A stretch of 64,000 nucleotides of DNA from Bacteroidota bacterium. GTDB lineage: Bacteria; Bacteroidota; Bacteroidia; UBA7662; CANHCV01. The notes beneath the pieces were generated by a model. It was not told the origin of the DNA. It was given only the letters and a program-made list of their open reading frames with translations, and did not search any database. Shown in pieces: positions 15,657 to 50,132 of the stretch. The stretch lies in the NCBI GenBank assembly GCA_947459245.1, contig CANHCV010000002.1:6217-70216 (forward strand), read 5' to 3'. A program made the position numbers and the translations under genes. Position 1 is the first letter of the stretch. Each line of letters begins with the position of its first letter.

Positions 15657-17390
15657 TTATTTTTTTGGACTTGTAGTAGGTGTTTTTGCCTTACCTGTTT
15701 TTGGGTCTACCGGTTTACCACCTTTTGGATCTGTGGCTGGGGTATTCCCTTTAGCAGGAACCGTTTGTTTTCTGCTTGTTCCTTGGAAATTAATGATTCG
15801 CTGAGCGGTGCTGTTCATCGGATCTAAGGCTAAAACCTTGGCCGCAAATTCTTTGGCCATTGGAATGTTATCCTTCTGAACGTTGTAGGTCATCAAATAA
15901 CTCAAGGCATCTTGTTGATCTTTCTTGAACTTGGATTTATCTGCTGTTGATGTATCAACCATCATCAAGAATTGCTTGAAGAAGGTTGTTGCTTCAGCAA
16001 ATTGAAGGGCGGTATCGGTTTGAGCATTCGTTTTTGCACGCCACAAATAACCCAAATAGGCTTCAGGTTTAGCAGCAATAACCTTAGAGAAAGCAGAATC
16101 TGCAGAAACAAAATTTTTCGCAAAATAGTAAGCACGGCCAACAGTAAAGTAATCGGCAGCCGACACTTTAGGAAGGTAGGAGTTTTTGGTTTCGAATGCC
16201 ATGGCCGCATCGTTGTAACGACGGGCTTTGTTGTACACATCACCAATCTCACCCCAAAGTTCGGTGCGCTTGGTAGAATCCAAAGAAATGGCTTTTTTGA
16301 AGCTTTCAACGGCTGCATCAACATTGCCGGTTTTGGCATTGATTCTTCCAGAATACTCGTAATCGTTAACAATGATTTTACTAGAGTTTGCCTTAGAGAA
16401 AAATAGGTTAATGTTTTGTAGTGCAGCGTTGAATAAGCTATCGCCTTCTTCTTTGGAAGCAGCTTTTTTACCTTGTTCGAAATTTCCGTAAGCGATCAAA
16501 CGGTAAAGAATAGGGTTCGAAGCATCTACTTTTTGAATCTTCACAATCTCTTGGTTGGCCTTTTCGTAATCATCGCTCAAGAATAAAAATGAAGCATAGC
16601 GGGTTTCGGCCTCAATGGTCACGTCGGCAATCTGAAGGTAGGTGTTGTAATTTTCGGCAGCGGCCTTGTACTTTTTAGCTTGAAATTCCAATTCTCCGAG
16701 GCCGCGGTAGGCTGGAGCATATTGCATGTCTTTGTTGATGGACTGCTCGTAAGCAGCTTTGGAATCGCTGTAGTTTTTGTTGCGGAAGAAAATTTCTCCA
16801 ATGCGCTCGTGTGGGCGACCGGAAGACGGATTCATCAATGCAGCATCTTCGTAATTGTTAACGGCAGCACCACCGGAATCTGGGAACGTCATGTAATAAT
16901 CGCCCCAAGCCATCTTCACTTCAAAATCGTCTTTCTTGGCCAATTTTGCGCGATTCAAATAGTTCCAAGCCGCATCGGTGTTTCTCGCTTTTTCTGAATA
17001 TAAAGCACGAGCTGCCTCGGTAAGAACTTTTACGTTTTTGGCTTCCAACTTTACGGCTACCGCCATTTCGGTGGATAAAGCCATGGCGTCTCCGCCATTT
17101 TTCAATTTCATTTGAATTTGTCCAATTTTTGGAAGAGCCTTTTTCGGATTTGCAGCTACTCCAAGGTCGAAACAAATGCTGGCCGAATCGAATTGCTCGG
17201 TTGCTTGGTACACTTTACCTAAGTAGAAGTAAATTTCGGCGTCGTTGCCTTTTCCAATTAATCCTTTCAATTGATTTTTAGCTTCATTGAAACGGTGGGA
17301 ATACAAGGCATTCAAGCCTTCGTTCAAACTTTGTGCGGATGCGGCAACGATGCTCATCAACGCGACGAATGAAAAGAGAATTTTTTTCAC
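15657..17390 (-). CDS. Secreted tetratricopeptide-repeat protein with a Lys/Pro-rich C-terminal tail
   Basis: Signal peptide MKKILFSFVALMSIVAASAQ. Multiple TPR-like A/Y/L-rich helical repeats. The tail reads PAKGNTPATDPKGGKPVDPKTGKAKTPTTSPKK. Confidence 0.75.
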   Translation of the reverse strand: MKKILFSFVALMSIVAASAQSLNEGLNALYSHRFNEAKNQLKGLIGKGNDAEIYFYLGKVYQATEQFDSASICFDLGVAANPKKALPKIGQIQMKLKNGGDAMALSTEMAVAVKLEAKNVKVLTEAARALYSEKARNTDAAWNYLNRAKLAKKDDFEVKMAWGDYYMTFPDSGGAAVNNYEDAALMNPSSGRPHERIGEIFFRNKNYSDSKAAYEQSINKDMQYAPAYRGLGELEFQAKKYKAAAENYNTYLQIADVTIEAETRYASFLFLSDDYEKANQEIVKIQKVDASNPILYRLIAYGNFEQGKKAASKEEGDSLFNAALQNINLFFSKANSSKIIVNDYEYSGRINAKTGNVDAAVESFKKAISLDSTKRTELWGEIGDVYNKARRYNDAAMAFETKNSYLPKVSAADYFTVGRAYYFAKNFVSADSAFSKVIAAKPEAYLGYLWRAKTNAQTDTALQFAEATTFFKQFLMMVDTSTADKSKFKKDQQDALSYLMTYNVQKDNIPMAKEFAAKVLALDPMNSTAQRIINFQGTSRKQTVPAKGNTPATDPKGGKPVDPKTGKAKTPTTSPKK

Positions 17391-25870: not shown

Positions 25871-26620
25871 ATGTCTGCCATTTTAAACCACCTTGCGCAA
25901 CTCAAAGAAAATCAAGAGTCCGAATTGGTGGTTTTAATCGACCCCGACAAATCCGAGCAGAAAGCCATTCACCGATTGGTGGAAGGTTGTTTGCAAGCTC
26001 AAATTTCCACCCTTTTGATCGGCGGAAGTTATGTTCCACAAGGGAAAACCGAGCAATTGCTGAAGTGGATCAAAGAAGTTTCTACCGATGTGCAATTGGT
26101 GCTTTTCCCCGGTCACCCCGATCAAATTTCTTCCCAAGCAGATGCTTTATTGTTGCTTTCTTTGCTCTCCGGAAGAAATCCCGATTACCTCATTGGCCAC
26201 CATGTTCAATCGGCCAATCGCCTTCGTGAAAGCGGCTTGGATTTAATTCCCACTGCGTACATTTTGATCGATGGAGGGAAAACCACGGCGGTTCAATACA
26301 TCAGCAATACCCAACCTATCCCGCCCCAAGAAATTGCGTTGGCCTGTTCTACGGCTCTTGCCGGCGAACAATTGGGAATGAAATTGGTGTACATGGATGC
26401 CGGCAGTGGAGCGTTGTTGCCCATTCCAACCGAATTGATCGAGGAAGTGAGCAAAACCACGGCTCTTCCTTTGGTGGTTGGAGGCGGAATGCGCACCCCA
26501 CGAGAACTACAAGATCGAGCCATTGCCGGTGCGCAATGGTTGGTGGTTGGTAACGCCCTCGAAAAAGACCCGGATCTTCTTCAAGAAATGGCCTTGGCCA
26601 TCCCTCAGCGTACCCGTTAA
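25871..26620 (+). CDS. Geranylgeranylglyceryl / heptaprenylglyceryl phosphate synthase family protein (PcrB/GGGPS homologue)
   Basis: TIM-barrel GGGPS signatures (LLIGGSY..., YMDAGSGA..., VVGGGMRTP). The ATG at 25871 removes the overlap with the divergent upstream gene. Confidence 0.75.
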   Translation: MSAILNHLAQLKENQESELVVLIDPDKSEQKAIHRLVEGCLQAQISTLLIGGSYVPQGKTEQLLKWIKEVSTDVQLVLFPGHPDQISSQADALLLLSLLSGRNPDYLIGHHVQSANRLRESGLDLIPTAYILIDGGKTTAVQYISNTQPIPPQEIALACSTALAGEQLGMKLVYMDAGSGALLPIPTELIEEVSKTTALPLVVGGGMRTPRELQDRAIAGAQWLVVGNALEKDPDLLQEMALAIPQRTR

Positions 26621-28866
26621 CGCCGCTTGATCAGCAATTTGGATCCCTTATTTTTCCACTGGATAAAGTACAAACCTTCGGGAATTCCACCCACTTCCAA
26701 TTGAGCCGATTCCCCCAAAGGAATCTCCCATGAATGAATGAGTTGACCGGTGAGATTGAACAGGTTGATGGGCGCTTTCGGCCCTTGGGGTTGAATGATT
26801 TCTACTCGATCGGTGGCCGGATTTGGGAATAATTGAAGTGGAGTTACCTCTTGTTTTGGGAGTTGTTTGGTGCTTAAAGAACCCGCACGATTCCTTAAAC
26901 CAATGATTCCTCCATTGTTGGTGCCTAAAATCAAATCGGGAAGCGAATCTCCATTCCAATCGGCAACGGCCATGCGGAAACCATCTCCAAAATCGGCCTC
27001 ATCCACCGAGGCACCGCCCAACGAATTGGAGTAATAAAAAACAGAATCGTAGCGGTGCAAAATCGTATCGAAAATGTTATCAAACAAAATCAAGCGACCA
27101 CCCATTTCACCCACGGCCAAATCCCACTTTCCATCGGCATTGAAATCGGCCAAACGTGGGGTCGTTCTCGCCGGAAAAATGCTGTTCAAATCCAATCCAC
27201 CAAGGGTATCCGGCGCATTGGCTTGAAAAATGGGTGCGGTTTTCGTACCGGTATTTCGGTAGTAAAATACATGTCCATCAATGTCTCCCGAAATCAAATC
27301 CAACAACCCATCTTTATCTACATCAATCAATTGTGGAGCTGCATCGTAACCCAATTGGATGTTTTGAAAGGTGTCATTCTGCAAGGTGAATTCCACTTTT
27401 CCAGCAACCAAAGACCCGGAATAATATTCAATCAAGCCACTCGAATTTCCTGCCAATAAATCGGGAATGGAATCTCCATTCAAATCTCCGAACGTTGGAA
27501 TGAGATTCTTTCTGTTCGTTTGACCGATGATGTTGGAATAATTGGTATCCAGCCAATGGTAGCCGGTTGCCCCATATTCCAAAAGTTGAAGCGCTGCTTT
27601 GTTGTTCGCATTTTGAGTAAAGATGAATAGATCCAAATCCCCATCACGGTCGTAATCCAAAAATTCTGGAGATGACCACCAAGGAAAGTCGAGCATAGAA
27701 GCCGGAAACCAATTGGTTTCGCGCAAGGTAAATGTTTCTGGAGACGTAGGCGATACAGCGGTGTTTTCGTAATACCATCTACTGTTGTACCCCTTCGATT
27801 TGTTGTCGAATGGGTTCACCACCAAATCCATTTTTCCATCTTGGTTCACGTCCACTCGGCTAGCATGCGGGTAAATGGACCCTTTGTAAGGAATTTGATA
27901 ATTGGGGAAAGACGTATCCAATCCACAACCCATCGAATCTACACCGGTTAAAGAGGAATTTTGGATAAAAATCAAATTGGGATAAGAAATGTCGGAAAGT
28001 AAAATATCGTATTTCCCATCTTTATTTTGGTCGAAAATGGTGAGTGTTCCTCCCGAGTGAGTGGTTTTTTCGGGTTTTTCTTCTTGGGCGCGAAGTCCGC
28101 ATGGGCAAGACCGTGAGGTGTCACGGAAACAATTGGCATCCAAGCAGAGTCGAAGGTCATTGGTGATGAAACTTTCTTGAAACCGGCCCCAACAATTGGA
28201 TGAAATGAGAAAATCAAGGGTGTCGCGCCGGTTATACCGATCCATGCTCAAGTTTTTGTACCAAATGATGGATGGCGAAAAAATTTCCCATGCCAAAACA
28301 TCTACATCCCCATCGCCATCAATGTCAACCACCTCAGCATTGTCGGTGGCATTCACGTACATGTTGGTAGGGAAGGGTGAAAACTGAGTTTTAACAGGAA
28401 TGGCTGCGGTTTTTAACGTAAAGATGGGATAGGCATTTCCGGCCGGGGTGGTGTTCCGAAATAGTTTGGTTTCTCCGTTGTTGTTGGTGAAAAGATCCAA
28501 CCGCCCGTCTCCATCGTAGTCGGCAAAATCTACCCAATCTTGTACGAAAGGGAAGAATTTTTGATACTGAGGAGCAAATTCGTATTGGGTTTGCCCACCC
28601 ATGTTTCGGTTGAGGTAAACCGAAAGGATGGAATCTTGCTTTTCAAAACTGACGATATCTTGAGACCCATCTCCGTTAACATCCATGTTGAAAAACTGAT
28701 TGCAGGTTGCCCCACCGTTCCAAGCCGCTTGGAGAAACAAACCGGAGGTATCGAATACCGGAAGTGGCGCTACTCGATCAAACAAAAAAGGAAACCGCCC
28801 CGATTGCGCCACTAAGAATTGAGAAAACAAGAGTAGAAATGCCGATAAAAAGAGTCGCTTCTGCAT
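26617..28866 (-). CDS. FG-GAP / VCBS-repeat beta-propeller protein with a T9SS type-A C-terminal sorting domain
   Basis: Many D-x-D-G-D / FG-GAP-like repeats (DVNGDGSQD, DYDGDGRLD, DIDGDGDVD, DYDRDGDLD...). The C-terminus is a Por_Secre_tail (LQLFPNPATDRVEI...LYFIQWKNKGS). Confidence 0.8.
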   Translation of the reverse strand: MQKRLFLSAFLLLFSQFLVAQSGRFPFLFDRVAPLPVFDTSGLFLQAAWNGGATCNQFFNMDVNGDGSQDIVSFEKQDSILSVYLNRNMGGQTQYEFAPQYQKFFPFVQDWVDFADYDGDGRLDLFTNNNGETKLFRNTTPAGNAYPIFTLKTAAIPVKTQFSPFPTNMYVNATDNAEVVDIDGDGDVDVLAWEIFSPSIIWYKNLSMDRYNRRDTLDFLISSNCWGRFQESFITNDLRLCLDANCFRDTSRSCPCGLRAQEEKPEKTTHSGGTLTIFDQNKDGKYDILLSDISYPNLIFIQNSSLTGVDSMGCGLDTSFPNYQIPYKGSIYPHASRVDVNQDGKMDLVVNPFDNKSKGYNSRWYYENTAVSPTSPETFTLRETNWFPASMLDFPWWSSPEFLDYDRDGDLDLFIFTQNANNKAALQLLEYGATGYHWLDTNYSNIIGQTNRKNLIPTFGDLNGDSIPDLLAGNSSGLIEYYSGSLVAGKVEFTLQNDTFQNIQLGYDAAPQLIDVDKDGLLDLISGDIDGHVFYYRNTGTKTAPIFQANAPDTLGGLDLNSIFPARTTPRLADFNADGKWDLAVGEMGGRLILFDNIFDTILHRYDSVFYYSNSLGGASVDEADFGDGFRMAVADWNGDSLPDLILGTNNGGIIGLRNRAGSLSTKQLPKQEVTPLQLFPNPATDRVEIIQPQGPKAPINLFNLTGQLIHSWEIPLGESAQLEVGGIPEGLYFIQWKNKGSKLLIKRR

Positions 28867-28931
28867 AAAATCAAAATTACATGGAAAGTTGTTCCTTGAA
28901 ACGTAATTTTGGAAAAAATAATTGTCACAAT

Positions 28932-30152
28932 ATGAAGATTTTAAAAGTCCTGTCCGTATTTCTCATCTTGTTCAGCATGTCTGAAACCGTTTTAACCAAT
29001 TCGGGTGGAGCTCCAAGTGGATACACCGGTGCCCCAGGAGAAGGGAACTGTACCAATTGCCACTACGGCACCGTGAACGGCGGAAGTGGAAGCCTAACCA
29101 TCAGCATTGCAGGTAATCCATCCACGTATGTCCCTGGCCAATCGTACGATGTAACCGTTTATGTTCGCGATCCTTTGGCCAATAAATTTGGATTTCAAGC
29201 CACGGCAGTTCGCAATTCCAATAACCAAGGGGCTGGAACCATGAGCGCAGGAAGTTTTAACCAAATTTCCGTTTCCAGCAGCAGTGGTAAATCGTATGCC
29301 AACCACAATACCTCCCCTGGAATTGTTCAATTTGGTCGCCGTTGGACGTTCGTGTGGACGGCTCCAGCAGCAGGAACAGGTGCAGTAACCATTTACGCTT
29401 CAGGGAATGTTGCCAATAACGATAGATCTACTTCGGGCGACGAAATTTATACCAACAACCTTACCATCAACGAGGCGGTAACTTCCACACCTCCGGTGAT
29501 TTCCTCTACTACGGTTACCGCCTGCCAAGGAGATACCATCCGTTTGCAACAAACCACCACTCAATCCATCACCTGGTTTTTCAATGGAGTAATTACCTCT
29601 CAAACCTCCAATAACTTTTCGGCCACCCAATCGGGCAATTACTACGCAGTGAATGGGAATGGCGATTCTTCCAACCACATTCGTTTGGTTTTTAATCCCA
29701 AACCTGCCGTTCCAACCGTTTCTCAAACCGGACAAGGGGTATTGGTTTCGAGTTCCAACTCGGGCAATCAATGGTACTTCAACGGGGCTCCCATTGCCGG
29801 TTCAAACGGCCCATCCATCACCATTTCTTCGGGTGGAGTTTATTGGGTAACCACTACCAATAGCTTCGGTTGCAGCAGTACTTCTCAGCCATTTTATTCG
29901 GCTTTGGGTGCAAAAGGTGGCGTTTCAACATCTCCAAAATTGTACCCAAATCCATCTTCTACCCCAACGTTGGACTTAGGAACCTGGGAGAAGGCAGAAG
30001 TAATGATTTGGGATGCTCAAGGGAAAGTTGTCTTTAGAAAGAATGGAGCTTCAGGATCTTTGGTTTTGCCTGAATTGTTTGCCGGTATTTATACCATTGA
30101 AGTTCGATCCAATAACGTAATTTGGAAGCAAAAATGGATCAACCCATCATAA
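28932..30152 (+). CDS. Secreted T9SS type-A cargo protein with an N-terminal CXXCH-containing (reeler-like?) domain
   Basis: Signal peptide MKILKVLSVFLILFSMSE. The motif GAPSGYTGAPGEGNCTNCH lies immediately after the signal peptide. The C-terminus is a Por_Secre_tail (KLYPNPSSTPTLDL...GIYTIEVRSN). Confidence 0.75.
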   Translation: MKILKVLSVFLILFSMSETVLTNSGGAPSGYTGAPGEGNCTNCHYGTVNGGSGSLTISIAGNPSTYVPGQSYDVTVYVRDPLANKFGFQATAVRNSNNQGAGTMSAGSFNQISVSSSSGKSYANHNTSPGIVQFGRRWTFVWTAPAAGTGAVTIYASGNVANNDRSTSGDEIYTNNLTINEAVTSTPPVISSTTVTACQGDTIRLQQTTTQSITWFFNGVITSQTSNNFSATQSGNYYAVNGNGDSSNHIRLVFNPKPAVPTVSQTGQGVLVSSSNSGNQWYFNGAPIAGSNGPSITISSGGVYWVTTTNSFGCSSTSQPFYSALGAKGGVSTSPKLYPNPSSTPTLDLGTWEKAEVMIWDAQGKVVFRKNGASGSLVLPELFAGIYTIEVRSNNVIWKQKWINPS

Positions 30153-30661
30153 AACCCATCGATGCCGAAATGCCGGAATATTACCGGTATTACGTTGGCC
30201 TGGTTGCTGAAAACAATTTGCTGGATGGGTTGAAGGCAGCCTCCTTGCTATGGGATGAATTGCTGCAATCGGTAAGCATGGAGCAGTTTCATTTTCGATA
30301 TGCCGATGGAAAATGGTCGATGGCCGAGGTGCTGATGCACATGATGGATACCGAACGAATCTTTGCTTACCGGGCTTTTCGCTGTTCAAGAATGGATGCG
30401 ACCGTTTTGCCCGGATTCGATGAAAATCATTTCATCGCTCACGCCAATGGGGAAATGAACCTAGCTACCCCGCAGCAATGGGGTAAGATGCATCGGAATT
30501 TGCGCGCTGTTACCATCGATTTATTTGAAGGAATGCCATTAGCGGGGTTGAATTTTTTCGGAAATGCCAATGGCCTTTCGGTTTCTGCCAGGGCTTTGGG
30601 CTTTATGATCGTGGGTCATGATTTGCACCATTTGAAGGTTATTCGAGAAAGATATCTTTGA
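30134..30661 (+). CDS. DinB/YfiT-family protein (DinB_2 four-helix bundle)
   Basis: Conserved His residues in ...EVLMHMMDTERIF... and ...MIVGHDLHHL... over about 175 aa. Confidence 0.7.
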   Translation: MDQPIIKPIDAEMPEYYRYYVGLVAENNLLDGLKAASLLWDELLQSVSMEQFHFRYADGKWSMAEVLMHMMDTERIFAYRAFRCSRMDATVLPGFDENHFIAHANGEMNLATPQQWGKMHRNLRAVTIDLFEGMPLAGLNFFGNANGLSVSARALGFMIVGHDLHHLKVIRERYL

Positions 30662-30718: not shown

Positions 30719-31297
30719 TTATTTCCCCCATTGAAATTCACCCAATTCCATCACTACAGCACGAAGTGACAATTGAATATCGGCTTTGATGCGCGTGGTT
30801 GAGGGATGATCTCTTCGGAGCATTCCTCTACCTGAAATTTCGATGGAAGGCTTTTCCGCGTAGGGAAGCAAATCATCCGAAGAAATGTAGGAAGGCTGAA
30901 AAAACTTGGAGTTCAAAGGAACCGCACTTTCGCCGGCTAATTTAATGAGTGGCAAATTCTCAGCTTCCCCATACATTTCAAACGATTCTAAATCGTCGAA
31001 CGTTTGATCTTCTGGAAATTCCGTTGAGAGGGTCACCGCGTTCACCCCAATGAATTCGATGTTTTCCTTGTTCAAGTTATTGGTTCTACAGAAATCAGCC
31101 AAATCAATATTGATTGATTTTTTTGCTTCAATGGTTTCGCCGGCATTTTTAGGCGGCACATCGAAATAAATGGTGGCCATGTTGTAATTCACATTGGCGG
31201 TTACATTCTGTTTGTTGCAAGAGGTGAACGACCAGCCTAGGATCACCGCACCCAATAGTAGCATTTGTTTCATTTGTTTTTCGTTTTGATGAAACAA
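30719..31297 (-). CDS. Hypothetical lipoprotein
   Basis: Lipobox ...ILGWSFTSC. No family was recognised. Confidence 0.5.
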   Translation of the reverse strand: MFHQNEKQMKQMLLLGAVILGWSFTSCNKQNVTANVNYNMATIYFDVPPKNAGETIEAKKSINIDLADFCRTNNLNKENIEFIGVNAVTLSTEFPEDQTFDDLESFEMYGEAENLPLIKLAGESAVPLNSKFFQPSYISSDDLLPYAEKPSIEISGRGMLRRDHPSTTRIKADIQLSLRAVVMELGEFQWGK

Positions 31298-31520: not shown

Positions 31521-32414
31521 TTAAAACTTATAGTTTAATCCTAATCCTAGAACTTGAGAGAATTGAATCTTGGTATCTTGATCAATATCTCTTATGATGA
31601 TGATGCTTCCAGTGAATCGCAACCACTTGTTGATTTTGTAGGTGAGTAAGATGTCTACCCGGTGATCGAAAACCTTGGGTTGGGAAATTTGCTGGTAAGA
31701 AACGAATCCCTGGTAACGGCCTTTAAAGGAAAGCTGCTTAATGATGTCTTTGTCAACGCTTACCTGAAGCTGCATGCCCACTTCGTTGCGAATTCTCTCG
31801 CCTTTGGGAACCCCGTACCTCAACGTATCGGTTAAGCCATACACTTCTTCGTTGATCACCATCGACTGTTTCAGGGCCAATAAACCCATTCGGGCGTTCA
31901 AGATTTGCGCTTTTTTGTACTGAAGTCCAATCGCTTCGGTTAAATAACCCGGAGCTAAAAAGGAGGAAATGAACTTTCTGCTGCTGGCGTAATCGAAACC
32001 GGGGCTGAATTGAGAAACCAAATTCAATGATGCGAATCCCATCCACCGTTGATTGATTTCGTGGCTGTAGTTTCCATCTACATAAATCAAATCCTGGGTT
32101 TTTCGAACGAATGAATCAACCACGTTTTTTTGAAGTCCAAACCTAAAATCACCCGTAAAAGTGGCACTCATGGTTTTCTTTTTGTACAAGGCCTTGGTGA
32201 TGAAAACCGTATTTCCGGCTAAGTTGTTCACCCCTCCAGACTTCCAGTTTCTTGAAAAGTAGGATTGGTTTCCGCTTAAGGAATACTCATTGGTCCAAGT
32301 CCAATATTTTTCCGGCAGGGTGGTGGGCAAGGGTTTGGATGTAGATTGCGCCAACCCCTTGAAATGAAAGAATCCGAAAATGGACAAAAAGATTATTCCG
32401 ACTTTTTTTTCCAT
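31521..32414 (-). CDS. Outer-membrane beta-barrel protein (DUF3078-like)
   Basis: Signal peptide plus alternating amphipathic beta-strands ending in a C-terminal aromatic residue (...LGLGLNYKF). Confidence 0.5.
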   Translation of the reverse strand: MEKKVGIIFLSIFGFFHFKGLAQSTSKPLPTTLPEKYWTWTNEYSLSGNQSYFSRNWKSGGVNNLAGNTVFITKALYKKKTMSATFTGDFRFGLQKNVVDSFVRKTQDLIYVDGNYSHEINQRWMGFASLNLVSQFSPGFDYASSRKFISSFLAPGYLTEAIGLQYKKAQILNARMGLLALKQSMVINEEVYGLTDTLRYGVPKGERIRNEVGMQLQVSVDKDIIKQLSFKGRYQGFVSYQQISQPKVFDHRVDILLTYKINKWLRFTGSIIIIRDIDQDTKIQFSQVLGLGLNYKF

Positions 32415-45480: not shown

Positions 45481-45553
45481 TAGTTGGAGTTTTTGTTTTG
45501 TATTTTTCCACTCTGTTAAAAACATCGATCACTAGTAGTTGTAAATGATACTT

Positions 45554-46798
45554 ATGAAGAGACTTGCTCTTTTTTCTTTAACGCTTTTCGGCATGGTTGC
45601 CTTAAGCAGTTGTGGTGGCTCCGGAAATGGGGAGCTTATCGGGGTACAAGGTCGTGAGGCCTATTTCCCAGGAGAACCTTATGGAATGGTATTTGTACCA
45701 CAAGGAAATTTCCAGGCTGGGCAAAGCGATCAGGACGTGATGTTCTCGCTTAATGCGCCTACCAAAACCGTTTCAGTTGGAGCGTTCTATATGGATGAAA
45801 CTGAAATTACGAACAACGAGTACCGTCAGTTCGTTCAATGGGTTGCAGATTCCATCGCTCATACCAAATTGAACCACATCAAAGAAGGTCCTGCCGGTGA
45901 AAAGTTCATCGATTGGGAACAAGAAATTAAGTGGAACGATGAGGCGTTGAAAGACATGTTCTATGCTGGCGATGACCAAGTATTCGGAAAACAAGAATTG
46001 GATGTTCGCAAGTTGACCTATTTGTACCAGTGGTACGATTTGAACAATGCTGCTCATAACAAGGATGTAACTGCAAAACGCAACAAGTTCATTGTTCGCG
46101 ATTCGGTTTACGTTTATCCTGATACGCTTTGTTGGACTCGCGATTTCGCGTACAGCTACAACGAGCCGATGACTCAGAACTATTACAGCCACCCAGCTTA
46201 CGATGATTATCCTGTCGTTGGTGTGAACTGGAATCAGGCAAATGCTTTCTGCTCTTGGAGAACCGACTATGTGAATACCTTCCGTCGTGAAAACAAAGAG
46301 GTTGAAGCCCCACCGTACCACTTGCCAACAGAATGGCAATTTGAATACGCTGCTCGTGGTGGTTTGAATACTTCTCCTTATCCTTGGGGTGGTCCTTACA
46401 TCCGTAACGATAAAGGATGTTTCTTGGCTAACTTCAAACCCGGCCGTGGTAACTACACCGATGATGGTGGTCACTACACCGTTAAAGTTTACAGCTACAA
46501 TCCTAACGATTTCGGACTTTATAACATGTCTGGTAACGTTGCTGAGTGGACCCTTACTTCTTACGAAGAATCTGTTTACAGCACCGTTCACGATATGAAT
46601 CCAGATTTCCGTTACCAGCGCAAAAAAGGAGACGACATTGTTCGCACTCGTAAAGTTATCCGCGGTGGATCTTGGAAAGATGCTGCTCACATGTTGCGCG
46701 TTTCTACCCGCGACTTTGAATACCAAGACACTTCCAAAAGTTACATTGGCTTCCGTTGTATCCAAGATTTCTTGGGCCGTTCCATGGAAGACTTTTAA
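45554..46798 (+). CDS. gldK: Gliding motility / T9SS lipoprotein GldK (PorK) with an FGE-sulfatase-like domain
   Basis: Lipobox LALFSLTLFGMVALSSC and the SUMF1/FGE-fold motif RGGSWKDAAHMLRVSTR. It is followed by gldLMN. Confidence 0.9.
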   Translation: MKRLALFSLTLFGMVALSSCGGSGNGELIGVQGREAYFPGEPYGMVFVPQGNFQAGQSDQDVMFSLNAPTKTVSVGAFYMDETEITNNEYRQFVQWVADSIAHTKLNHIKEGPAGEKFIDWEQEIKWNDEALKDMFYAGDDQVFGKQELDVRKLTYLYQWYDLNNAAHNKDVTAKRNKFIVRDSVYVYPDTLCWTRDFAYSYNEPMTQNYYSHPAYDDYPVVGVNWNQANAFCSWRTDYVNTFRRENKEVEAPPYHLPTEWQFEYAARGGLNTSPYPWGGPYIRNDKGCFLANFKPGRGNYTDDGGHYTVKVYSYNPNDFGLYNMSGNVAEWTLTSYEESVYSTVHDMNPDFRYQRKKGDDIVRTRKVIRGGSWKDAAHMLRVSTRDFEYQDTSKSYIGFRCIQDFLGRSMEDF

Positions 46799-46852
46799 TC
46801 AGAGAAATAACAAATAAAAAAATAAAAAGTAAAACATTTAAAACACAAAACT

Positions 46853-47515
46853 ATGTCAGGTGGTAATTTCATGACTTCCAAAAAAGGAAAAACAATCTTA
46901 GGATATGCATATGCCTGGGGTGCTGCGGTAGTAATCTTGGGTGCGTTATTCAAAATCATGCACTGGAAAGGCGCTTCTGAAATGTTAATTATTGGTATGG
47001 GTACTGAGGCGGTTATCTTCTTCGTTTCTGCTTTCGAACCTGTACACATGGAAATCGATTGGTCTTTGGTTTATCCTGAATTGAAAGGTTCTGGAGCTGA
47101 TCCATCCAAGAAATCAAAATCAGTAACTGAGCAATTGGATGACATGCTTGGCAAGTCTAAAGTTGGAACTGAATTGATCGATTCTTTAGGAAAAGGAATG
47201 ACCAACTTGAGCGATACCGTTGGAAAAATGTCGAAATTGGGTGATGCTTCTGTAGCAACTCAAGAGTTTTCTACCAACGTTAAAACTGCAGCTGGTTCTG
47301 TTTCTGCTTTCAACAACATTACCGTTGAAGCTGGTGGAAAAATTTCTGAAATGACCAAAGCTTACGGTGGTGTTGCTAACTCTATCGCTACTTTGAACGC
47401 TGCTGCTGCTGATGCAGAAGTGTACAAAGCAGAGTTGAGCAAGTTGACTTCTAACTTGAAGAACTTGAACAACATCTACGGCGGTATGTTGTCTGCAATG
47501 ACCGGTAATAAATAA
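46853..47515 (+). CDS. gldL: Gliding motility / T9SS protein GldL (PorL)
   Basis: Two N-terminal TM helices (GAAVVILGALFKIMHWKG, LIIGMGTEAVIFFVSAF) and a cytoplasmic coiled region. About 220 aa. Confidence 0.9.
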   Translation: MSGGNFMTSKKGKTILGYAYAWGAAVVILGALFKIMHWKGASEMLIIGMGTEAVIFFVSAFEPVHMEIDWSLVYPELKGSGADPSKKSKSVTEQLDDMLGKSKVGTELIDSLGKGMTNLSDTVGKMSKLGDASVATQEFSTNVKTAAGSVSAFNNITVEAGGKISEMTKAYGGVANSIATLNAAAADAEVYKAELSKLTSNLKNLNNIYGGMLSAMTGNK

Positions 47516-47554
47516 TTTTAATCCAACACATTTTAATCAAATAAACTTGTAACT

Positions 47555-49144
47555 ATGGCAGGTGGTAATGTTTCACCGCGTCAGAAGATGATCAACATGA
47601 TGTATCTCGTGTTGACCGCCCTCTTGGCGCTTCAGGTTTCAAGTGAGGTGTTGGCTGCGTTCTTTCGCATCAATAACTCCTTGAGTTCCTCTAACGTAAA
47701 TACCGTATCTAAAATTGATGCGCTTTACGACAAATTTGAATCCGAATACAAAAAGAATCCAGCGAAAGTTGAGAAGTTTTACACCAAAGCAAAAGACGCA
47801 AAATCTGCAGTAGAAGAAGCTTTAAAAGTTATTTCTGAATACCGCGATAAGCTGATCGATTTGGCTGGTAACGTAAACGGTAAACACGATGCTGGTGACC
47901 ACAAAGACGAGGATATTACCAAGTCTTGGATGGGTGAATCCAACATCGACGTTGGTCCAGTATTGTTCATTGGTCCCAATGGACGTACCAAAGACGGTGA
48001 CCGTTTGGAAAACACCATTCGCGACGTTCGCAAGAAGTTGATCGCTTTGGTTGGAGAACAGAACAAAGGCTTGGTGAAAATCGAAGAGCCTGTAGGTTTG
48101 CCTGCTTCTAAGGATCAACCCAAAAAATCTTGGTTGGAAGCCAACTTCCAATCCATGCCTTTGGCCGGTATCGTTACCTTGATGACCAAATTTGAATCAG
48201 ATTTGCGCAACTCTCAATCTGAAATCGTTGCCTTCTTGTTGGGTGATATCGATGCATTGGACATCAAAGTAAACAAATTGGAAGCTAAGGTTATCGCAAA
48301 ATCTACTTATATCCTTCAGGGTGGTAAGTACGAAGCTGAAGTAATTGTAGCTGCATTTGACTCGACTGCTCAACCAAAAGCATACGTTGGTGGAAGCTTG
48401 TTGAAAAACGAAGGCGGAAAATCAATGTACTCTTCTGGAGCTACTGCAGCTGGAGTTAAGAAGTACGAAGGTTACGTAGAATTCCCAGATCCAAAGTCTC
48501 CAACCGGTATCGCCAAACTTCCATTCAAAGCTGAATACGAAGTGGGTGCTCCTACCGCTGCGGTTTCTCCCGATAACATGAACGTATTCTACATTGGTGT
48601 AGATAACCCAGTTACTATTTCTGCATCTGGAGTTTCTGCGAACTCTTTGAAACCTCAATTGGTAGGTGATGGAACCATCACTTCAACCGGTCCTGGTAAA
48701 TTCATGGTTCGCGTTTCTGGCCCTGCAGTTAAAGACAAAAAAGTTGTTGTTAAAGTAATCGGTCAAGTTGATGGCAAGCCACGTGAAATGGGTGCTGCTG
48801 AATTCCGAGTAAAGGCAATTCCTCTTCCTACTGCGAAAGTTGGTGCGGTTGAACCTACAGCTCCAGTAACCAAAGTAGCGCTTACTTCTCAATCTGGACT
48901 TACTGCTACTCCACTTGGATTCGATTTCGCTGTTAAATACAACGTAACTGAATATCAGTTCTATGCTTTCATCCCAGGAAAAGGTAAAGCAGTTGTTGAT
49001 GTTAAAGGTGCTGCACTTTCCGGTGAAGTAAAAAATACCATCAGCATTCTTCCCGCTGGTTCCTCCGTTGTTTTCCGTAACATCAAAGCAACTGGTCCTG
49101 ATGGCGTGAAATCATTGCTTCCATTAACCTATGAAATCAAGTAA
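47555..49144 (+). CDS. gldM: Gliding motility / T9SS protein GldM (PorM)
   Basis: N-terminal signature MAGGNVSPRQKMINMMYLVLTALLALQVSSEVL and a periplasmic multi-domain stalk of about 530 aa. Confidence 0.9.
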   Translation: MAGGNVSPRQKMINMMYLVLTALLALQVSSEVLAAFFRINNSLSSSNVNTVSKIDALYDKFESEYKKNPAKVEKFYTKAKDAKSAVEEALKVISEYRDKLIDLAGNVNGKHDAGDHKDEDITKSWMGESNIDVGPVLFIGPNGRTKDGDRLENTIRDVRKKLIALVGEQNKGLVKIEEPVGLPASKDQPKKSWLEANFQSMPLAGIVTLMTKFESDLRNSQSEIVAFLLGDIDALDIKVNKLEAKVIAKSTYILQGGKYEAEVIVAAFDSTAQPKAYVGGSLLKNEGGKSMYSSGATAAGVKKYEGYVEFPDPKSPTGIAKLPFKAEYEVGAPTAAVSPDNMNVFYIGVDNPVTISASGVSANSLKPQLVGDGTITSTGPGKFMVRVSGPAVKDKKVVVKVIGQVDGKPREMGAAEFRVKAIPLPTAKVGAVEPTAPVTKVALTSQSGLTATPLGFDFAVKYNVTEYQFYAFIPGKGKAVVDVKGAALSGEVKNTISILPAGSSVVFRNIKATGPDGVKSLLPLTYEIK

Positions 49145-49148
49145 TCTT

Positions 49149-50132
49149 ATGAAAAAGGTTATCCTATTGTTAGCAGTTGTTGGTATGTTTTCTTCTTTTG
49201 ATGCTATGGCTCAAAAAAAGAAAAAGAAACCAGCTCCTAAAAAACCAACCACAACTCAAACTACTCCCGTAGTTGAAACGCCAGCAGCTCCTCCTGCACC
49301 AAAAATTGATCCGGCAGATGTTCGTCCAAAAGTTGGACAAGCTAATCCAAACATCAAAGTGGTTGATGGAGGTTTCGAACGCCGTTCAGCTTCAGCTAAA
49401 GGAGCCATTGATCTTCCACAATTGCGTGAGAGTGATATCATTTGGTCTAAAGTTGTTTACCGTCAGATCGATTTGAAAGAGAAACAAAATTTGCCTTTGG
49501 CTTATAAAGGAAATCAACAAAAGAAGGATTTTCGCCTTCAGTTGATGGAATTGATGAAGTCTGGTAAATTGGAAGGATTCATCTTCGGTCGTTTGTTCGC
49601 TGATTATGCTGTAGAATTGGATGATTCTCAGGTGATGAGTAAAAACAACGTACTTAGCCAAGTAAACATCAAGGAAGTTATTCCTGTGGATGAAGACGGT
49701 GATGGTACCGCTGAAAGCTCAAAAGACACCTTGATTCCAATTGATGCTGATAAAATTACTGCTCTTCGTGTTAAAGAAGAATGGTATTTCGACAAGCAGT
49801 ACGGTCGTTTCGATGTTCGTATCGTAGCTATTGCTCCTTGTTACCGTAACCCTTCAGGTGATGGATACATCACCATCGCTTGGGTTTATTATCCAGCTCT
49901 TCGTCCTTTCATTTCTACTACCGAAATGATTTGCTGGCAGAACGATAATGCTAAAATTACTTTTGATGATTTCTTCATCAAGCGTTTGTTCTCCTCTGTT
50001 ATTTACCGCGAGGTTGAAGTAGGCGATCGTAACATTGAACAGTACACAGGTCCTGGTACTGCAGCTTTGAAAGAAGCCGATAAAATCAAAAACAAAATCA
50101 TCGATTGGGAACAATCGTTGTGGGAATATTGA
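49149..50132 (+). CDS. gldN: Gliding motility / T9SS protein GldN (PorN)
   Basis: Signal peptide MKKVILLLAVVGMFSSFDAMAQ at an ATG 5 bp after the gldM stop. Length and position are GldN-like. Confidence 0.85.
   Translation: MKKVILLLAVVGMFSSFDAMAQKKKKKPAPKKPTTTQTTPVVETPAAPPAPKIDPADVRPKVGQANPNIKVVDGGFERRSASAKGAIDLPQLRESDIIWSKVVYRQIDLKEKQNLPLAYKGNQQKKDFRLQLMELMKSGKLEGFIFGRLFADYAVELDDSQVMSKNNVLSQVNIKEVIPVDEDGDGTAESSKDTLIPIDADKITALRVKEEWYFDKQYGRFDVRIVAIAPCYRNPSGDGYITIAWVYYPALRPFISTTEMICWQNDNAKITFDDFFIKRLFSSVIYREVEVGDRNIEQYTGPGTAALKEADKIKNKIIDWEQSLWEY

What the first reader, a model, noticed from the sequence alone, without database searches (positions are those of the whole stretch)
28932..30152. 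T9SS cargo protein with an N-terminal CXXCH motif (possible c-type heme or metal site) in a reeler-like domain
Immediately after the signal peptide the protein reads GGAPSGYTGAPGEGNCTNCH. CXXCH is the canonical covalent heme-attachment motif. The downstream region is an all-beta Ser/Thr/Asn-rich domain and the C-terminus is a type-A T9SS sorting domain. A heme-binding or redox-active surface protein exported by the T9SS would be unusual. The gene is divergent from a large FG-GAP T9SS cargo gene.
Basis: partly seen in the sequence, partly recalled or inferred. Interest (0 to 1): 0.5.

Follow-up and report, generated by a model that had tools for sequence, protein, structure and literature searches.

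The report
Reeler-fold surface cytochrome, T9SS-anchored
This gene most likely encodes a single-haem cytochrome with an unusual all-beta (reeler / cytochrome-f-like) fold that a freshwater Bacteroidota bacterium displays on its surface through the type IX secretion system; it belongs to a very large, catalogued but unstudied family that may carry electrons outside the cell.

Summary
Window 28932..30152 (+) encodes a 406-aa protein with four parts: a signal peptide, an N-terminal domain carrying C40-T-N-C43-H44, a Ser/Thr-rich stalk, and a type-A T9SS sorting domain. It lies divergent from an FG-GAP T9SS cargo gene.

The N-domain belongs to NCBIfam "choice-of-anchor V" (110.8 bits, cut-off 42) and is a sequence and fold relative of the animal Reeler domain. 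All 207 complete homologues examined keep Cys...Cys-His, with spacing CX2-5CH and one motif per protein. The family has about 11,000 clusters at 50% identity, and the domain is always N-terminal.

In relatives, the domain sits in a conserved operon: DUF5777 outer-membrane barrel, then (YceI-like protein), then small lipoprotein cytochrome c, then choice-of-anchor V. It follows DUF5777 in 29 of 37 informative loci.

Best reading: a covalently haem-bound, surface-displayed electron-transfer protein. Haem binding is inferred, not shown. The window gene itself has no such partners nearby. I found no literature on the family. Novelty: a new variant of a known kind. Interest is about 0.6.

The parts
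28904..28911 (+). Putative Bacteroidetes-type -7 promoter box TAATTTTG (consensus TAnnTTTG), 20 nt upstream of ATG 28932
   Evidence: Read from the sequence. The consensus comes from established knowledge of Bacteroidetes sigma-AB promoters. This is an inference and was not tested.
28932..30152 (+). Coding sequence of the 406-aa choice-of-anchor V / T9SS cargo protein, including the stop codon
   Evidence: Orthologues at 89% identity occur in the syntenic loci L007 and L008, with third-position-dominated substitutions.
28932..28997 (+). Sec signal peptide (residues 1 to about 22). Cleavage is probably after S17 (SMS|E) or T22.
   Evidence: Read from the sequence: K2 and K5, then a hydrophobic core at residues 6-14. 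Family-wide, the hydrophobic region ends about 25 residues before the first Cys. No dedicated signal-peptide predictor was available.
28998..29477 (+). Choice-of-anchor V domain (residues 23-182): a reeler-like beta-sandwich and the putative haem domain
29049..29063 (+). C40-T-N-C43-H44: putative covalent haem c attachment site with the proximal His ligand
   Evidence: 100% conserved in 207 homologues. Spacing varies over CX2-5CH, with one motif per protein.
29304..29306 (+). His125, a candidate distal (sixth) haem ligand
   Evidence: His in 90% and Gln in 7% of 207 homologues. It is absent from the haem-less F-spondin reeler domain, where a Cys two residues upstream aligns instead. This is an inference.
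29478..29939 (+). Ser/Thr/Asn-rich stalk (residues 183-336) with two W[FY]FNG-containing, probably Ig-like modules
   Evidence: Weak Pfam Ig_2 hit, E 0.032. pLDDT is below 50 because the alignment has no homologues here. The internal repeat is not significant. Longer relatives carry SprB, PKD or Ig repeats in this position.
29940..30149 (+). T9SS type-A C-terminal sorting domain (residues 337-406)
   Evidence: TIGR04183 scores 34.1 bits against a cut-off of 23. Pfam PF18962 scores 26 against 27. pLDDT is above 90 with a beta-sandwich fold.
26617..28866 (-). Divergently transcribed neighbour: a 749-aa FG-GAP repeat T9SS cargo protein
   Evidence: FG-GAP_3 2.5e-35 and Por_Secre_tail 1.7e-8. Synteny is conserved in L007 and L008.
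30134..30661 (+). Downstream DinB_2-family gene whose ATG overlaps the last 19 nt of the target gene; probably co-transcribed
   Evidence: DinB_2 5.7e-13. The overlap was read from the sequence. The arrangement is conserved in L007 and L008. Functional linkage is unknown.
45545..50132 (+). gldK-gldL-gldM-gldN: the T9SS core operon of the same organism, the machinery that would export the protein
   Evidence: TIGR03525 580 bits, TIGR03513 170.7, TIGR03517 313.6 and TIGR03523 161.2, all above their cut-offs.

Best explanation
The gene encodes a cell-surface monohaem c-type cytochrome built on a reeler-like beta-sandwich rather than on a classical helical cytochrome c fold. The proposed pathway has four steps, all inferred.

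1. The precursor crosses the inner membrane through Sec, and the signal peptide is removed.
2. In the periplasm, the cytochrome c maturation system attaches haem covalently to Cys40 and Cys43. His44 is the proximal iron ligand. The distal ligand is probably His125, or, as in cytochrome f, the free N-terminal amine about 20 residues upstream.
3. The folded holo-protein is recognised through its C-terminal type-A sorting domain and exported by the T9SS, whose gldKLMN genes are in the same window. It is then attached to the cell surface.
4. The haem domain sits at the distal tip of a short Ig-like stalk and exchanges single electrons with an extracellular partner.

In close relatives, the same domain is the last gene of an operon that also encodes an outer-membrane beta-barrel (DUF5777), a YceI-like (isoprenoid/quinone-binding family) protein and a small lipoprotein cytochrome c. 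That points to a trans-outer-membrane electron path ending on this protein.

The physiological acceptor or donor is not identified. Candidates are ferric iron or other metals, humics, oxygen or reactive oxygen species, or a secreted redox enzyme. The window copy is a stand-alone version of the module.
For: Shown by tool results:
- Family membership and reeler homology.
- Cys, Cys and His are invariant in 207 of 207 complete homologues. Spacing is CX2CH in 132, CX3CH in 12, CX4CH in 57 and CX5CH in 5, with one motif per protein.
- The other invariant residues (Y66, P68, G69, Y72, W142, A144, P145, G150) are shared with the haem-less F-spondin reeler domain. C40, C43, H44, H125 and the GxPxGxTGxPG(D/E)G lead-in are specific to the bacterial family.
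- The domain starts at residues 1-24 in all 150 best family representatives, including proteins of up to 1177 aa that carry SprB/PKD/Ig repeats and a T9SS CTD.
- Operon linkage: all 37 DUF5777 loci with at least 2.2 kb downstream carry a small lipoprotein cytochrome c (Pfam Cytochrome_CBB3, 27.4 bits against 27). Of these, 29 carry choice-of-anchor V next on the same strand and 26 carry a YceI-like protein.
- A distant GC-rich lineage pairs two choice-of-anchor V genes with two CX4CH lipoproteins next to a DUF3570 barrel.
- The lipoprotein cytochrome orthologues themselves alternate between CX2CH and CX4CH. So this spacing variation occurs in a Pfam-recognised cytochrome c of the same lineages.
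- The T9SS machinery is in the window.
- The gene is under purifying selection and syntenic in two MAGs.
Against: - No experiment and no haem-containing structure model supports haem binding, so it rests on motif conservation and context.
- The window gene has no cytochrome, barrel or cytochrome c maturation gene within 64 kb. Most family contexts examined, about 15 of 18, are likewise solitary.
- The distal ligand is unresolved: H125 is replaced by Gln in 7% of homologues.
- Animal Reeler domains are adhesion/heparin-binding modules without haem. A tip-domain + stalk + anchor layout is also what adhesins look like.
- The cytochrome f similarity is fold-only. hhalign aligns 9 columns around CXXCH, with probability 4-13%. 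Foldseek does not list cytochrome f among its top 50 hits.
Confidence: 0.6

Rival explanations
1. The protein is a non-haem surface adhesin or binding module. The reeler-like domain binds a polymer or another cell, as animal Reeler domains bind heparin or microbial surfaces. The Cys-x-x-Cys-His segment forms a structural disulfide or a Zn/Cu site that stabilises the N-terminal arm.
For: - Homology to the haem-less F-spondin reeler domain, in which the Cys aligned with C40 is retained without the CH.
- The layout of tip domain, Ig/PKD/SprB stalk and CTD is typical of Bacteroidota adhesins.
- Most genomic contexts are uninformative.
- YcnI, a copper-binding protein, appears among the weaker fold matches.
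Against: - A disulfide does not explain an invariant His fixed directly after the second Cys while the Cys-Cys spacing varies from 2 to 5.
- The conserved operon contains one or two bona fide cytochromes c and an outer-membrane barrel.
- Fold similarity to cytochrome f.
Confidence: 0.13
2. The protein is a haem protein, but not an electron shuttle. The covalently bound haem is five-coordinate or has a labile ligand. It acts catalytically or as a ligand binder at the cell surface. Possible roles are a peroxidase or superoxide-handling enzyme, or an NO/O2 binder comparable to the beta-sheet cytochromes P460 and c'-beta.
For: - The only candidate distal ligand, H125, is not invariant: 90% His and 7% Gln.
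- The window gene and most relatives lack electron-transfer partners nearby.
- The downstream overlapping DinB_2 gene and the neighbourhood give no respiratory signal.
Against: - There is no sequence or fold match to peroxidases, P460 or cytochrome c'.
- Where context is conserved, the partners are electron carriers (small cytochrome c, dihaem cytochrome c, YceI-like protein) and a barrel, not enzymes.
Confidence: 0.17
3. The motif occurs by chance in an ordinary Ser/Thr-rich T9SS cargo protein, or the ORF is an annotation artefact.
For: None beyond the general fact that short motifs can arise by chance.
Against: - About 0.03 CXXCH are expected in all long ORFs of the window, and this is the only one found in a real gene.
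- The motif is invariant in 207 homologues.
- The gene is conserved, syntenic and under purifying selection.
Confidence: 0.01

Closest known systems
NCBIfam NF041895 'choice-of-anchor V domain' (with NF041894, the MXAN_6652 family MYXO-CTERM-anchored protein)
   Same: The window protein scores 110.8 bits against a cut-off of 42 over residues 14-177. The domain is N-terminal and followed by a C-terminal sorting signal, here the T9SS type-A CTD. This is the family the protein belongs to.
   Different: The family is only a catalogue entry. In the searchable literature I found no paper that names choice-of-anchor V or reports a function, cofactor or structure for it. The window protein is not the MXAN_6652 equivalog (43.6 bits against a cut-off of 200).
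Animal Reeler domain (Pfam PF02014; F-spondin reelin-N domain, PDB 2ZOT, 2ZOU, 3COO)
   Different: F-spondin has no Cys-x-x-Cys-His and no equivalent of H125. It lacks the Gly/Pro-rich N-terminal lead-in and is a haem-less extracellular-matrix module.
Cytochrome f (PetA) large domain of the cytochrome b6f complex
   Different: There is no detectable sequence homology beyond the motif. There is no small-domain insertion, no C-terminal membrane helix and no b6f genes. The protein is surface-exposed rather than facing a thylakoid lumen. N-terminal amine ligation is untested.
Porin-cytochrome outer-membrane conduits (MtrCAB, PioAB/MtoAB, Cyc2) of metal-reducing and metal-oxidising bacteria
   Same: In relatives, an outer-membrane barrel gene is co-encoded with a periplasm-side lipoprotein cytochrome c and a surface-exposed haem-motif protein. 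This is the same logic of passing electrons across the outer membrane.
   Different: The components are unrelated in sequence. The cytochromes here are monohaem rather than decahaem. The barrel is DUF5777 or DUF3570, about 290-400 aa. The surface component reaches the outside by T9SS rather than T2SS. The window gene itself is not in such an operon.
Cytochrome domain of cellobiose dehydrogenase and DOMON-type haem domains; Cellvibrio japonicus Cbp2D/Cbp2E (from my own knowledge, not tested here)
   Same: These are extracellular beta-sandwich haem domains, or secreted proteins containing cytochrome c and YceI-like domains, that hand electrons to extracellular partners. The pairing of YceI-like and cytochrome recurs in the DUF5777 operons.
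   Different: CDH and DOMON bind haem b non-covalently through Met/His. No sequence or fold match to them was found. No LPMO or carbohydrate-binding module is nearby.

Membership tests
Choice-of-anchor V domain (NCBIfam NF041895) | Score above the curated cut-off of the family model | tested here: met
   110.8 bits against a cut-off of 42, E 5.8e-32, residues 14-177 covering model positions 3-149 of 150.
Choice-of-anchor V domain (NCBIfam NF041895) | N-terminal domain followed by one of several alternative C-terminal sorting or anchoring signals | tested here: met
   The domain lies directly after the signal peptide and a T9SS type-A CTD is at the C-terminus. Relatives end in Por_Secre_tail, FlgD_ig-type tails or no recognised tail.
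Reeler domain (Pfam PF02014) | Profile match at or above the gathering score | tested here: met
   22 bits against 21, which is marginal. It is supported by a family-profile hit to the F-spondin reeler domain, E 8.4e-9.
Reeler domain (Pfam PF02014) | Reeler beta-sandwich fold | tested here: met
c-type cytochrome (covalent haem protein) | Cys-Xn-Cys-His attachment motif in a Sec-exported protein | tested here: met
   CTNCH at residues 40-44, after a signal peptide.
c-type cytochrome (covalent haem protein) | Motif conserved across homologues | tested here: met
   207 of 207 complete homologues keep the motif, with spacing of 2-5 residues and the CH pair invariant.
c-type cytochrome (covalent haem protein) | Covalently bound haem demonstrated | not testable with these tools
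   This needs haem staining, a pyridine haemochrome spectrum or mass spectrometry of the protein.
c-type cytochrome (covalent haem protein) | Cytochrome c maturation system (CcsBA or Ccm) in the same genome | tested here: inconclusive
   None was found among the window ORFs scanned against Pfam/NCBIfam, and no other haem-motif gene occurs in the 64 kb. The rest of the genome is not available. Related Bacteroidota loci do encode Pfam-recognised cytochromes c, so the lineage matures c-type cytochromes.
c-type cytochrome (covalent haem protein) | Identifiable distal axial ligand | tested here: inconclusive
   H125 is 90% conserved, with Gln in 7%. No invariant Met or second His exists. The N-terminal amine is possible.
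Cytochrome f (Pfam PF16639 / PF01333) | Sequence-profile match to apocytochrome f | tested here: not met
   There is no Pfam hit. hhalign aligns only 9 columns around CXXCH, with probability 4% and 13%.
Cytochrome f (Pfam PF16639 / PF01333) | Large-domain beta-sandwich fold with an N-terminal haem-binding segment | tested here: met
Cytochrome f (Pfam PF16639 / PF01333) | Small-domain insertion, C-terminal transmembrane helix and association with b6f genes | tested here: not met
   The domain is about 160 residues without an insertion. The C-terminus is a T9SS CTD. No pet genes are nearby.
T9SS type-A cargo | Signal peptide plus a C-terminal type-A sorting domain | tested here: met
   TIGR04183 scores 34.1 bits against a cut-off of 23. 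Pfam PF18962 scores 26 against 27. The CTD is modelled at pLDDT above 90.
T9SS type-A cargo | T9SS machinery present in the organism | tested here: met
   gldK, gldL, gldM and gldN lie at 45545-50132, and all four equivalog models score above their cut-offs.
Porin-cytochrome type outer-membrane electron conduit | Surface cytochrome co-encoded with an outer-membrane barrel and a periplasmic cytochrome | tested here: not met
   This is not met for the window gene: no homologue of DUF5777, YceI or the lipoprotein cytochrome occurs in the 64 kb. It is met for relatives: 29 of 37 DUF5777 loci, and locus L088.

The most novel reading that the evidence does not exclude
Two linked claims that the evidence does not exclude.

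1. The bacterial choice-of-anchor V domain, the animal Reeler domain and the large domain of cytochrome f are one ancient superfamily of beta-sandwich domains whose ancestral state was a covalent N-terminal haem. That would give cytochrome f, so far regarded as having no relatives (my own knowledge), thousands of bacterial cousins. It would also suggest that animal Reeler domains, including the one on the ferric reductase FRRS1/SDR2, descend from extracellular cytochromes.

2. DUF5777 barrel + YceI-like protein + lipoprotein cytochrome c + T9SS-exported choice-of-anchor V cytochrome form a previously unrecognised extracellular electron-transfer chain. It would be widespread in aerobic freshwater and marine Bacteroidota. 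Stand-alone copies such as the window gene would be additional surface terminals.
Probability: 0.25. Interest if true: 0.85.

Novelty: new variant of a known kind. Interest (0 to 1): 0.62.

Why it matters
If the domain binds haem, about 11,000 sequence clusters, now labelled only "choice-of-anchor V" or "hypothetical", become a new structural class of cell-surface cytochrome.

- This would be the first T9SS cargo I could find with a covalent redox cofactor.
- It would imply that many aerobic, polymer-degrading Bacteroidota, together with Ignavibacteria, Zixibacteria, Calditrichota and myxobacteria-like lineages, move electrons to or from the outside of the cell. That bears on iron acquisition, humic and metal redox cycling, and extracellular reactive-oxygen chemistry in lakes and oceans.
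- It would provide a testable evolutionary link between cytochrome f, whose origin is unexplained, and the animal Reeler domain, whose role in the ferric reductase SDR2/FRRS1 is unknown (bioRxiv 10.1101/2023.09.01.555970).
- The hypothesis is cheap to test with one recombinant domain.

Tried and rejected
- **Sequence homology to cytochrome f.** hhalign of the family alignment against Chlamydomonas cytochrome f, and against a 19-sequence cytochrome f alignment, aligned only 9 columns around CXXCH with probability 4% and 13%. The large homologue search with cytochrome f returned only close green-algal sequences and added little diversity. The relationship therefore rests on fold only.
- **Tyr66 as haem ligand.** It is invariant, but it is equally conserved in the haem-less F-spondin reeler domain, so it is more likely a fold residue.
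- **Internal repeat in the stalk.** The two W[FY]FNG modules align with a score of 42 against a shuffle mean of 31 +/- 6, which is not significant.
- **Conserved neighbours of the window gene.** Its contexts and those of most homologues share nothing informative. No other haem-motif gene occurs in the window.
- **Genome-collection scan with the family alignment.** It failed because no stretch was conserved enough. The single-protein scan mostly recovered stalk and CTD relatives.
- **AlphaFold database fold library.** It was not available, so no annotated AFDB neighbours were obtained.
- **Literature.** Seven searches found nothing on the topic: reeler + haem, T9SS + cytochrome + extracellular electron transfer, cytochrome f + reeler, reeler + type IX secretion, MXAN_6652, DUF5777, and type IX secretion + c-type cytochrome. 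The choice-of-anchor search returned 33 papers; none of the 15 listed concerned type V, a haem group or a cytochrome, and none was opened.
- **Chance occurrence and mis-annotation.** Both were considered and rejected.
Full report
**1. The observation**

The ORF at 28932..30152 (+) is real and reads as described.
- A signal peptide (MKILKVLSVFLILFSMS...) is followed by NSGGAPSGYTGAPGEGN-C40-T-N-C43-H44.
- The rest comprises a ~160-residue all-beta domain, a Ser/Thr/Asn-rich stretch (residues 183-336) and a C-terminal T9SS type-A sorting domain.
- The sorting domain scores 34.1 bits on TIGR04183 (cut-off 23) and 26 on Pfam PF18962 (cut-off 27).
- The upstream divergent gene 26617..28866 (-) is an FG-GAP protein with its own Por_Secre_tail.
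- ATG 28932 is the likely start. A Bacteroidetes-type -7 box, TAATTTTG, lies at 28904-28911, downstream of the alternative ATG 28881, and the orthologues begin MKILKV.
- The motif is not a chance event. With Cys at 0.98% and His at 1.75%, about 0.03 CXXCH are expected in all long ORFs of the window, and this is the only genuine gene that carries one.

**2. Which family it is**

- The N-terminal domain is a clear member of NCBIfam NF041895, "choice-of-anchor V domain" (110.8 bits, cut-off 42).
- It just passes Pfam Reeler (22 bits against 21).
- The only solved structures found by sequence are the F-spondin reeler domains. The single sequence gives E 4e-6 and the family profile gives E 8e-9.
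- A profile search of 1.84 billion representative proteins found 11,011 clusters at E<=1e-3 and 7,919 at E<=1e-10. In all 150 best hits the domain starts at residues 1-24, directly after the signal peptide, even in proteins of 1,000 residues or more.
- Those long members carry SprB, PKD or Ig-like repeats and a T9SS CTD behind the domain. The domain therefore sits at the distal tip of a stalk of variable length.

**3.

- In 56 aligned homologues, and then in all 207 complete sequences collected, the two Cys and the His are 100% conserved.
- The spacing is CX2CH in 132, CX3CH in 12, CX4CH in 57 and CX5CH in 5. The His always directly follows the second Cys, and there is one motif per protein.
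- A fixed CH pair with a variable Cys-Cys loop is the signature of c-type haem attachment sites. A structural disulfide would not require it.
- The other invariant or near-invariant residues (Y66, P68, G69, Y72, W142, A144, P145, G150) are also conserved in the haem-less F-spondin reeler domain, so they are fold determinants.
- C40, C43, H44, H125 (90% His, 7% Gln) and the Gly/Pro-rich lead-in GxPxGxTGxPG(D/E)G are specific to the bacterial family.
- In the F-spondin alignment, one Cys aligns with C40 and another lies two residues before the H125 position. This suggests, by inference only, that the H125 loop and the motif are neighbours in space, which makes H125 a candidate distal ligand.

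**4. Fold**

- AlphaFold models the N-domain with pLDDT 89 and pTM 0.83. In the full-length model the CTD is also above 90, while the stalk is poorly modelled because the alignment is empty there.
- From established knowledge, cytochrome f is the all-beta c-type cytochrome whose single CXXCH lies 20 residues from the mature N-terminus, and whose N-terminal amine is the sixth haem ligand.
- In this family the first Cys lies about 20 (+/- 3) residues after the hydrophobic core of the signal peptide, and the domain is always N-terminal.
- The relationship is not visible in sequence. hhalign aligns nine columns around the motif, with probability 4-13%, and Foldseek does not list cytochrome f in its top 50. 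I treat it as a structural analogy that may or may not reflect common descent.

**5. Genomic context**

*The window gene*
- The window gene is solitary as far as redox partners are concerned. Its neighbours are PcrB, TonB-C, RecX, a DinB_2 gene that overlaps its 3' end by 19 nt, a small lipoprotein, DUF3078 and an MMPL transporter.
- The same arrangement is kept in two freshwater Bacteroidetes MAGs, L007 and L008. Their orthologue is 89% identical, with substitutions falling 36/15/134 on codon positions 1/2/3.
- The window also contains the T9SS core operon gldKLMN (45545-50132) and a 3,413-residue CHU_C-type cargo protein, so the export route exists in this organism.
- Most homologue contexts are equally uninformative.

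*The DUF5777 operon in relatives*
- The closest N-domain relatives (P0004 and L017, 42-46% identity) lie in an operon. Its order is DUF5777 ("membrane bound beta barrel", E 1.7e-74), a 113-123-residue lipoprotein with a haem motif, then choice-of-anchor V with a CTD. In some loci a dihaem cytochrome c lies upstream.
- A scan for DUF5777 in metagenomes gave 80 loci, of which 37 have at least 2.2 kb of downstream sequence.

| Feature downstream of DUF5777 | Loci (of 37) |
|---|---|
| Small lipoprotein cytochrome c (Pfam Cytochrome_CBB3, 27.4 bits against 27) | 37 |
| Choice-of-anchor V next on the same strand | 29 |
| YceI-like protein (E 1.8e-28) | 26 |
| Small membrane protein | 18 |

- Where choice-of-anchor V is missing, its slot holds a TPR protein and a DUF2271 T9SS cargo protein.
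- In a distant GC-rich lineage (L088), two choice-of-anchor V genes alternate with two CX4CH lipoproteins next to DUF4266 and a DUF3570 barrel.
- The lipoprotein cytochrome orthologues alternate between CX2CH and CX4CH. This is an internal control: these lineages show the same spacing variation in a Pfam-recognised cytochrome c.

**6. Mechanism proposed**

- Shown: family membership, motif invariance, fold, anchoring signal, presence of the T9SS, and operon linkage in relatives.
- Inferred: the protein is Sec-exported and receives haem on C40/C43 in the periplasm, with H44 as the proximal ligand. It folds, is exported through the T9SS and is attached to the surface.
- Inferred: there the monohaem domain, at the tip of a short stalk, exchanges electrons with an external partner.
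- Inferred: in operon-bearing relatives, electrons would pass from a periplasm-side lipoprotein cytochrome (perhaps fed through the YceI-like protein) across or along the DUF5777 barrel to the surface domain.
- The acceptor or donor is unknown. Candidates are iron or other metals, humics, oxygen species and secreted redox enzymes.
- I put 0.6 on this reading as a whole. The haem-binding part alone is higher and the electron-shuttle role is lower.

**7. Rivals**

- A non-haem adhesin with a disulfide or metal site fits the reeler ancestry and the adhesin-like layout. It does not explain the invariant CH, the variable spacing or the cytochrome operons (0.13).
- A haem protein with a catalytic or ligand-binding role fits the non-invariant H125 and the solitary context. 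It has no positive support from matches to known enzymes (0.17).
- Chance or mis-annotation is excluded (0.01).

**8. Comparison with what is known**

- The protein is a member of choice-of-anchor V and of the Reeler superfamily, and it is T9SS type-A cargo.
- It works, I propose, like a surface cytochrome of a porin-cytochrome system, and it resembles cytochrome f in how a beta-sandwich carries an N-terminal haem. It is a member of neither family, because the sequence criteria were tested and not met.
- The full-text searches turned up no paper that names choice-of-anchor V or links a reeler-type domain to haem in bacteria, a T9SS-exported c-type cytochrome, or DUF5777. The choice-of-anchor hits were judged from their titles and abstract openings only.

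**9. Verdict**

- The individual gene is an ordinary, stand-alone member of a very large catalogued family, which tempers the score.
- The family as a whole appears to be an unrecognised class of reeler-fold surface cytochromes, with a conserved partner operon in relatives and a striking fold resemblance to cytochrome f.
- Novelty: a new variant of a known kind. Interest: 0.62.
- The decisive experiment is a haem stain and pyridine haemochrome spectrum on the recombinant N-domain with Cys/His variants.

Noticed in passing
window 45545-50132 (+): The complete T9SS core operon gldK-gldL-gldM-gldN. All four NCBIfam equivalog models score above their cut-offs.
   Followed up: yes
window 155-10396 (+): A giant 3,413-residue ORF whose only Pfam match is a C-terminal CHU_C (type-B) T9SS signal domain. 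It is presumably a SprB-like surface or gliding adhesin. The body of the protein matches no family.
   Followed up: partly
window 30134-30661 (+): The ATG of a DinB_2-family gene overlaps the last 19 nt of the cytochrome-like gene in another frame. The overlap and order are conserved in the orthologous loci L007 and L008. It is unknown whether this cytoplasmic-type protein is functionally linked.
   Followed up: partly
L105 3878-6971; also L100, L104, L107, L124, L126 and others: A conserved five-gene operon: DUF5777 outer-membrane barrel, YceI-like protein, ~130-aa membrane protein, ~112-aa lipoprotein cytochrome c, and choice-of-anchor V T9SS cargo. I found no description of it in the searchable literature.
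   Followed up: yes
L118, L123, L139 (about 6180-7570): In DUF5777 operons that lack choice-of-anchor V, the terminal slot holds a TPR protein followed by a DUF2271 protein with a T9SS CTD. This may be an alternative surface terminal for the same module.
   Followed up: partly
L088 4093-8192: A GC-rich, non-Bacteroidota locus. It carries a DUF4266 lipoprotein, a DUF3570 barrel, and then two tandem pairs of a CX4CH lipoprotein (PSCyt-like lead-in, V/I-x-P-I/L-L...C) and a choice-of-anchor V protein. One of the latter has the motif CANCH, as in cytochrome f.
   Followed up: partly
L001/L002 8001-9729: Two tandem choice-of-anchor V + T9SS CTD paralogues (282 and 281 aa) lie side by side, which indicates local gene duplication in the family.
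   Followed up: no
L013 (contig CALRIT020000017.1): A MAG labelled Vulcanococcus limneticus (a cyanobacterium) carries a Bacteroidota-like 887-residue choice-of-anchor V T9SS protein nearly identical in its motif region to L011 and L012. This probably reflects bin contamination rather than a cyanobacterial gene.
   Followed up: no
window 30719-31297 (-) and 31521-32414 (-): A 192-aa lipoprotein with no family match, next to a DUF3078 protein that ends in an aromatic residue (probably an outer-membrane barrel). Both are conserved in L007 and L008, and both are of unknown function.
   Followed up: no
window 15657-17390 (-): A TPR protein with a sub-threshold match to the CcmH/CycH TPR domain of cytochrome c biogenesis (35.8 bits against a cut-off of 42). 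This is most likely generic TPR similarity.
   Followed up: no
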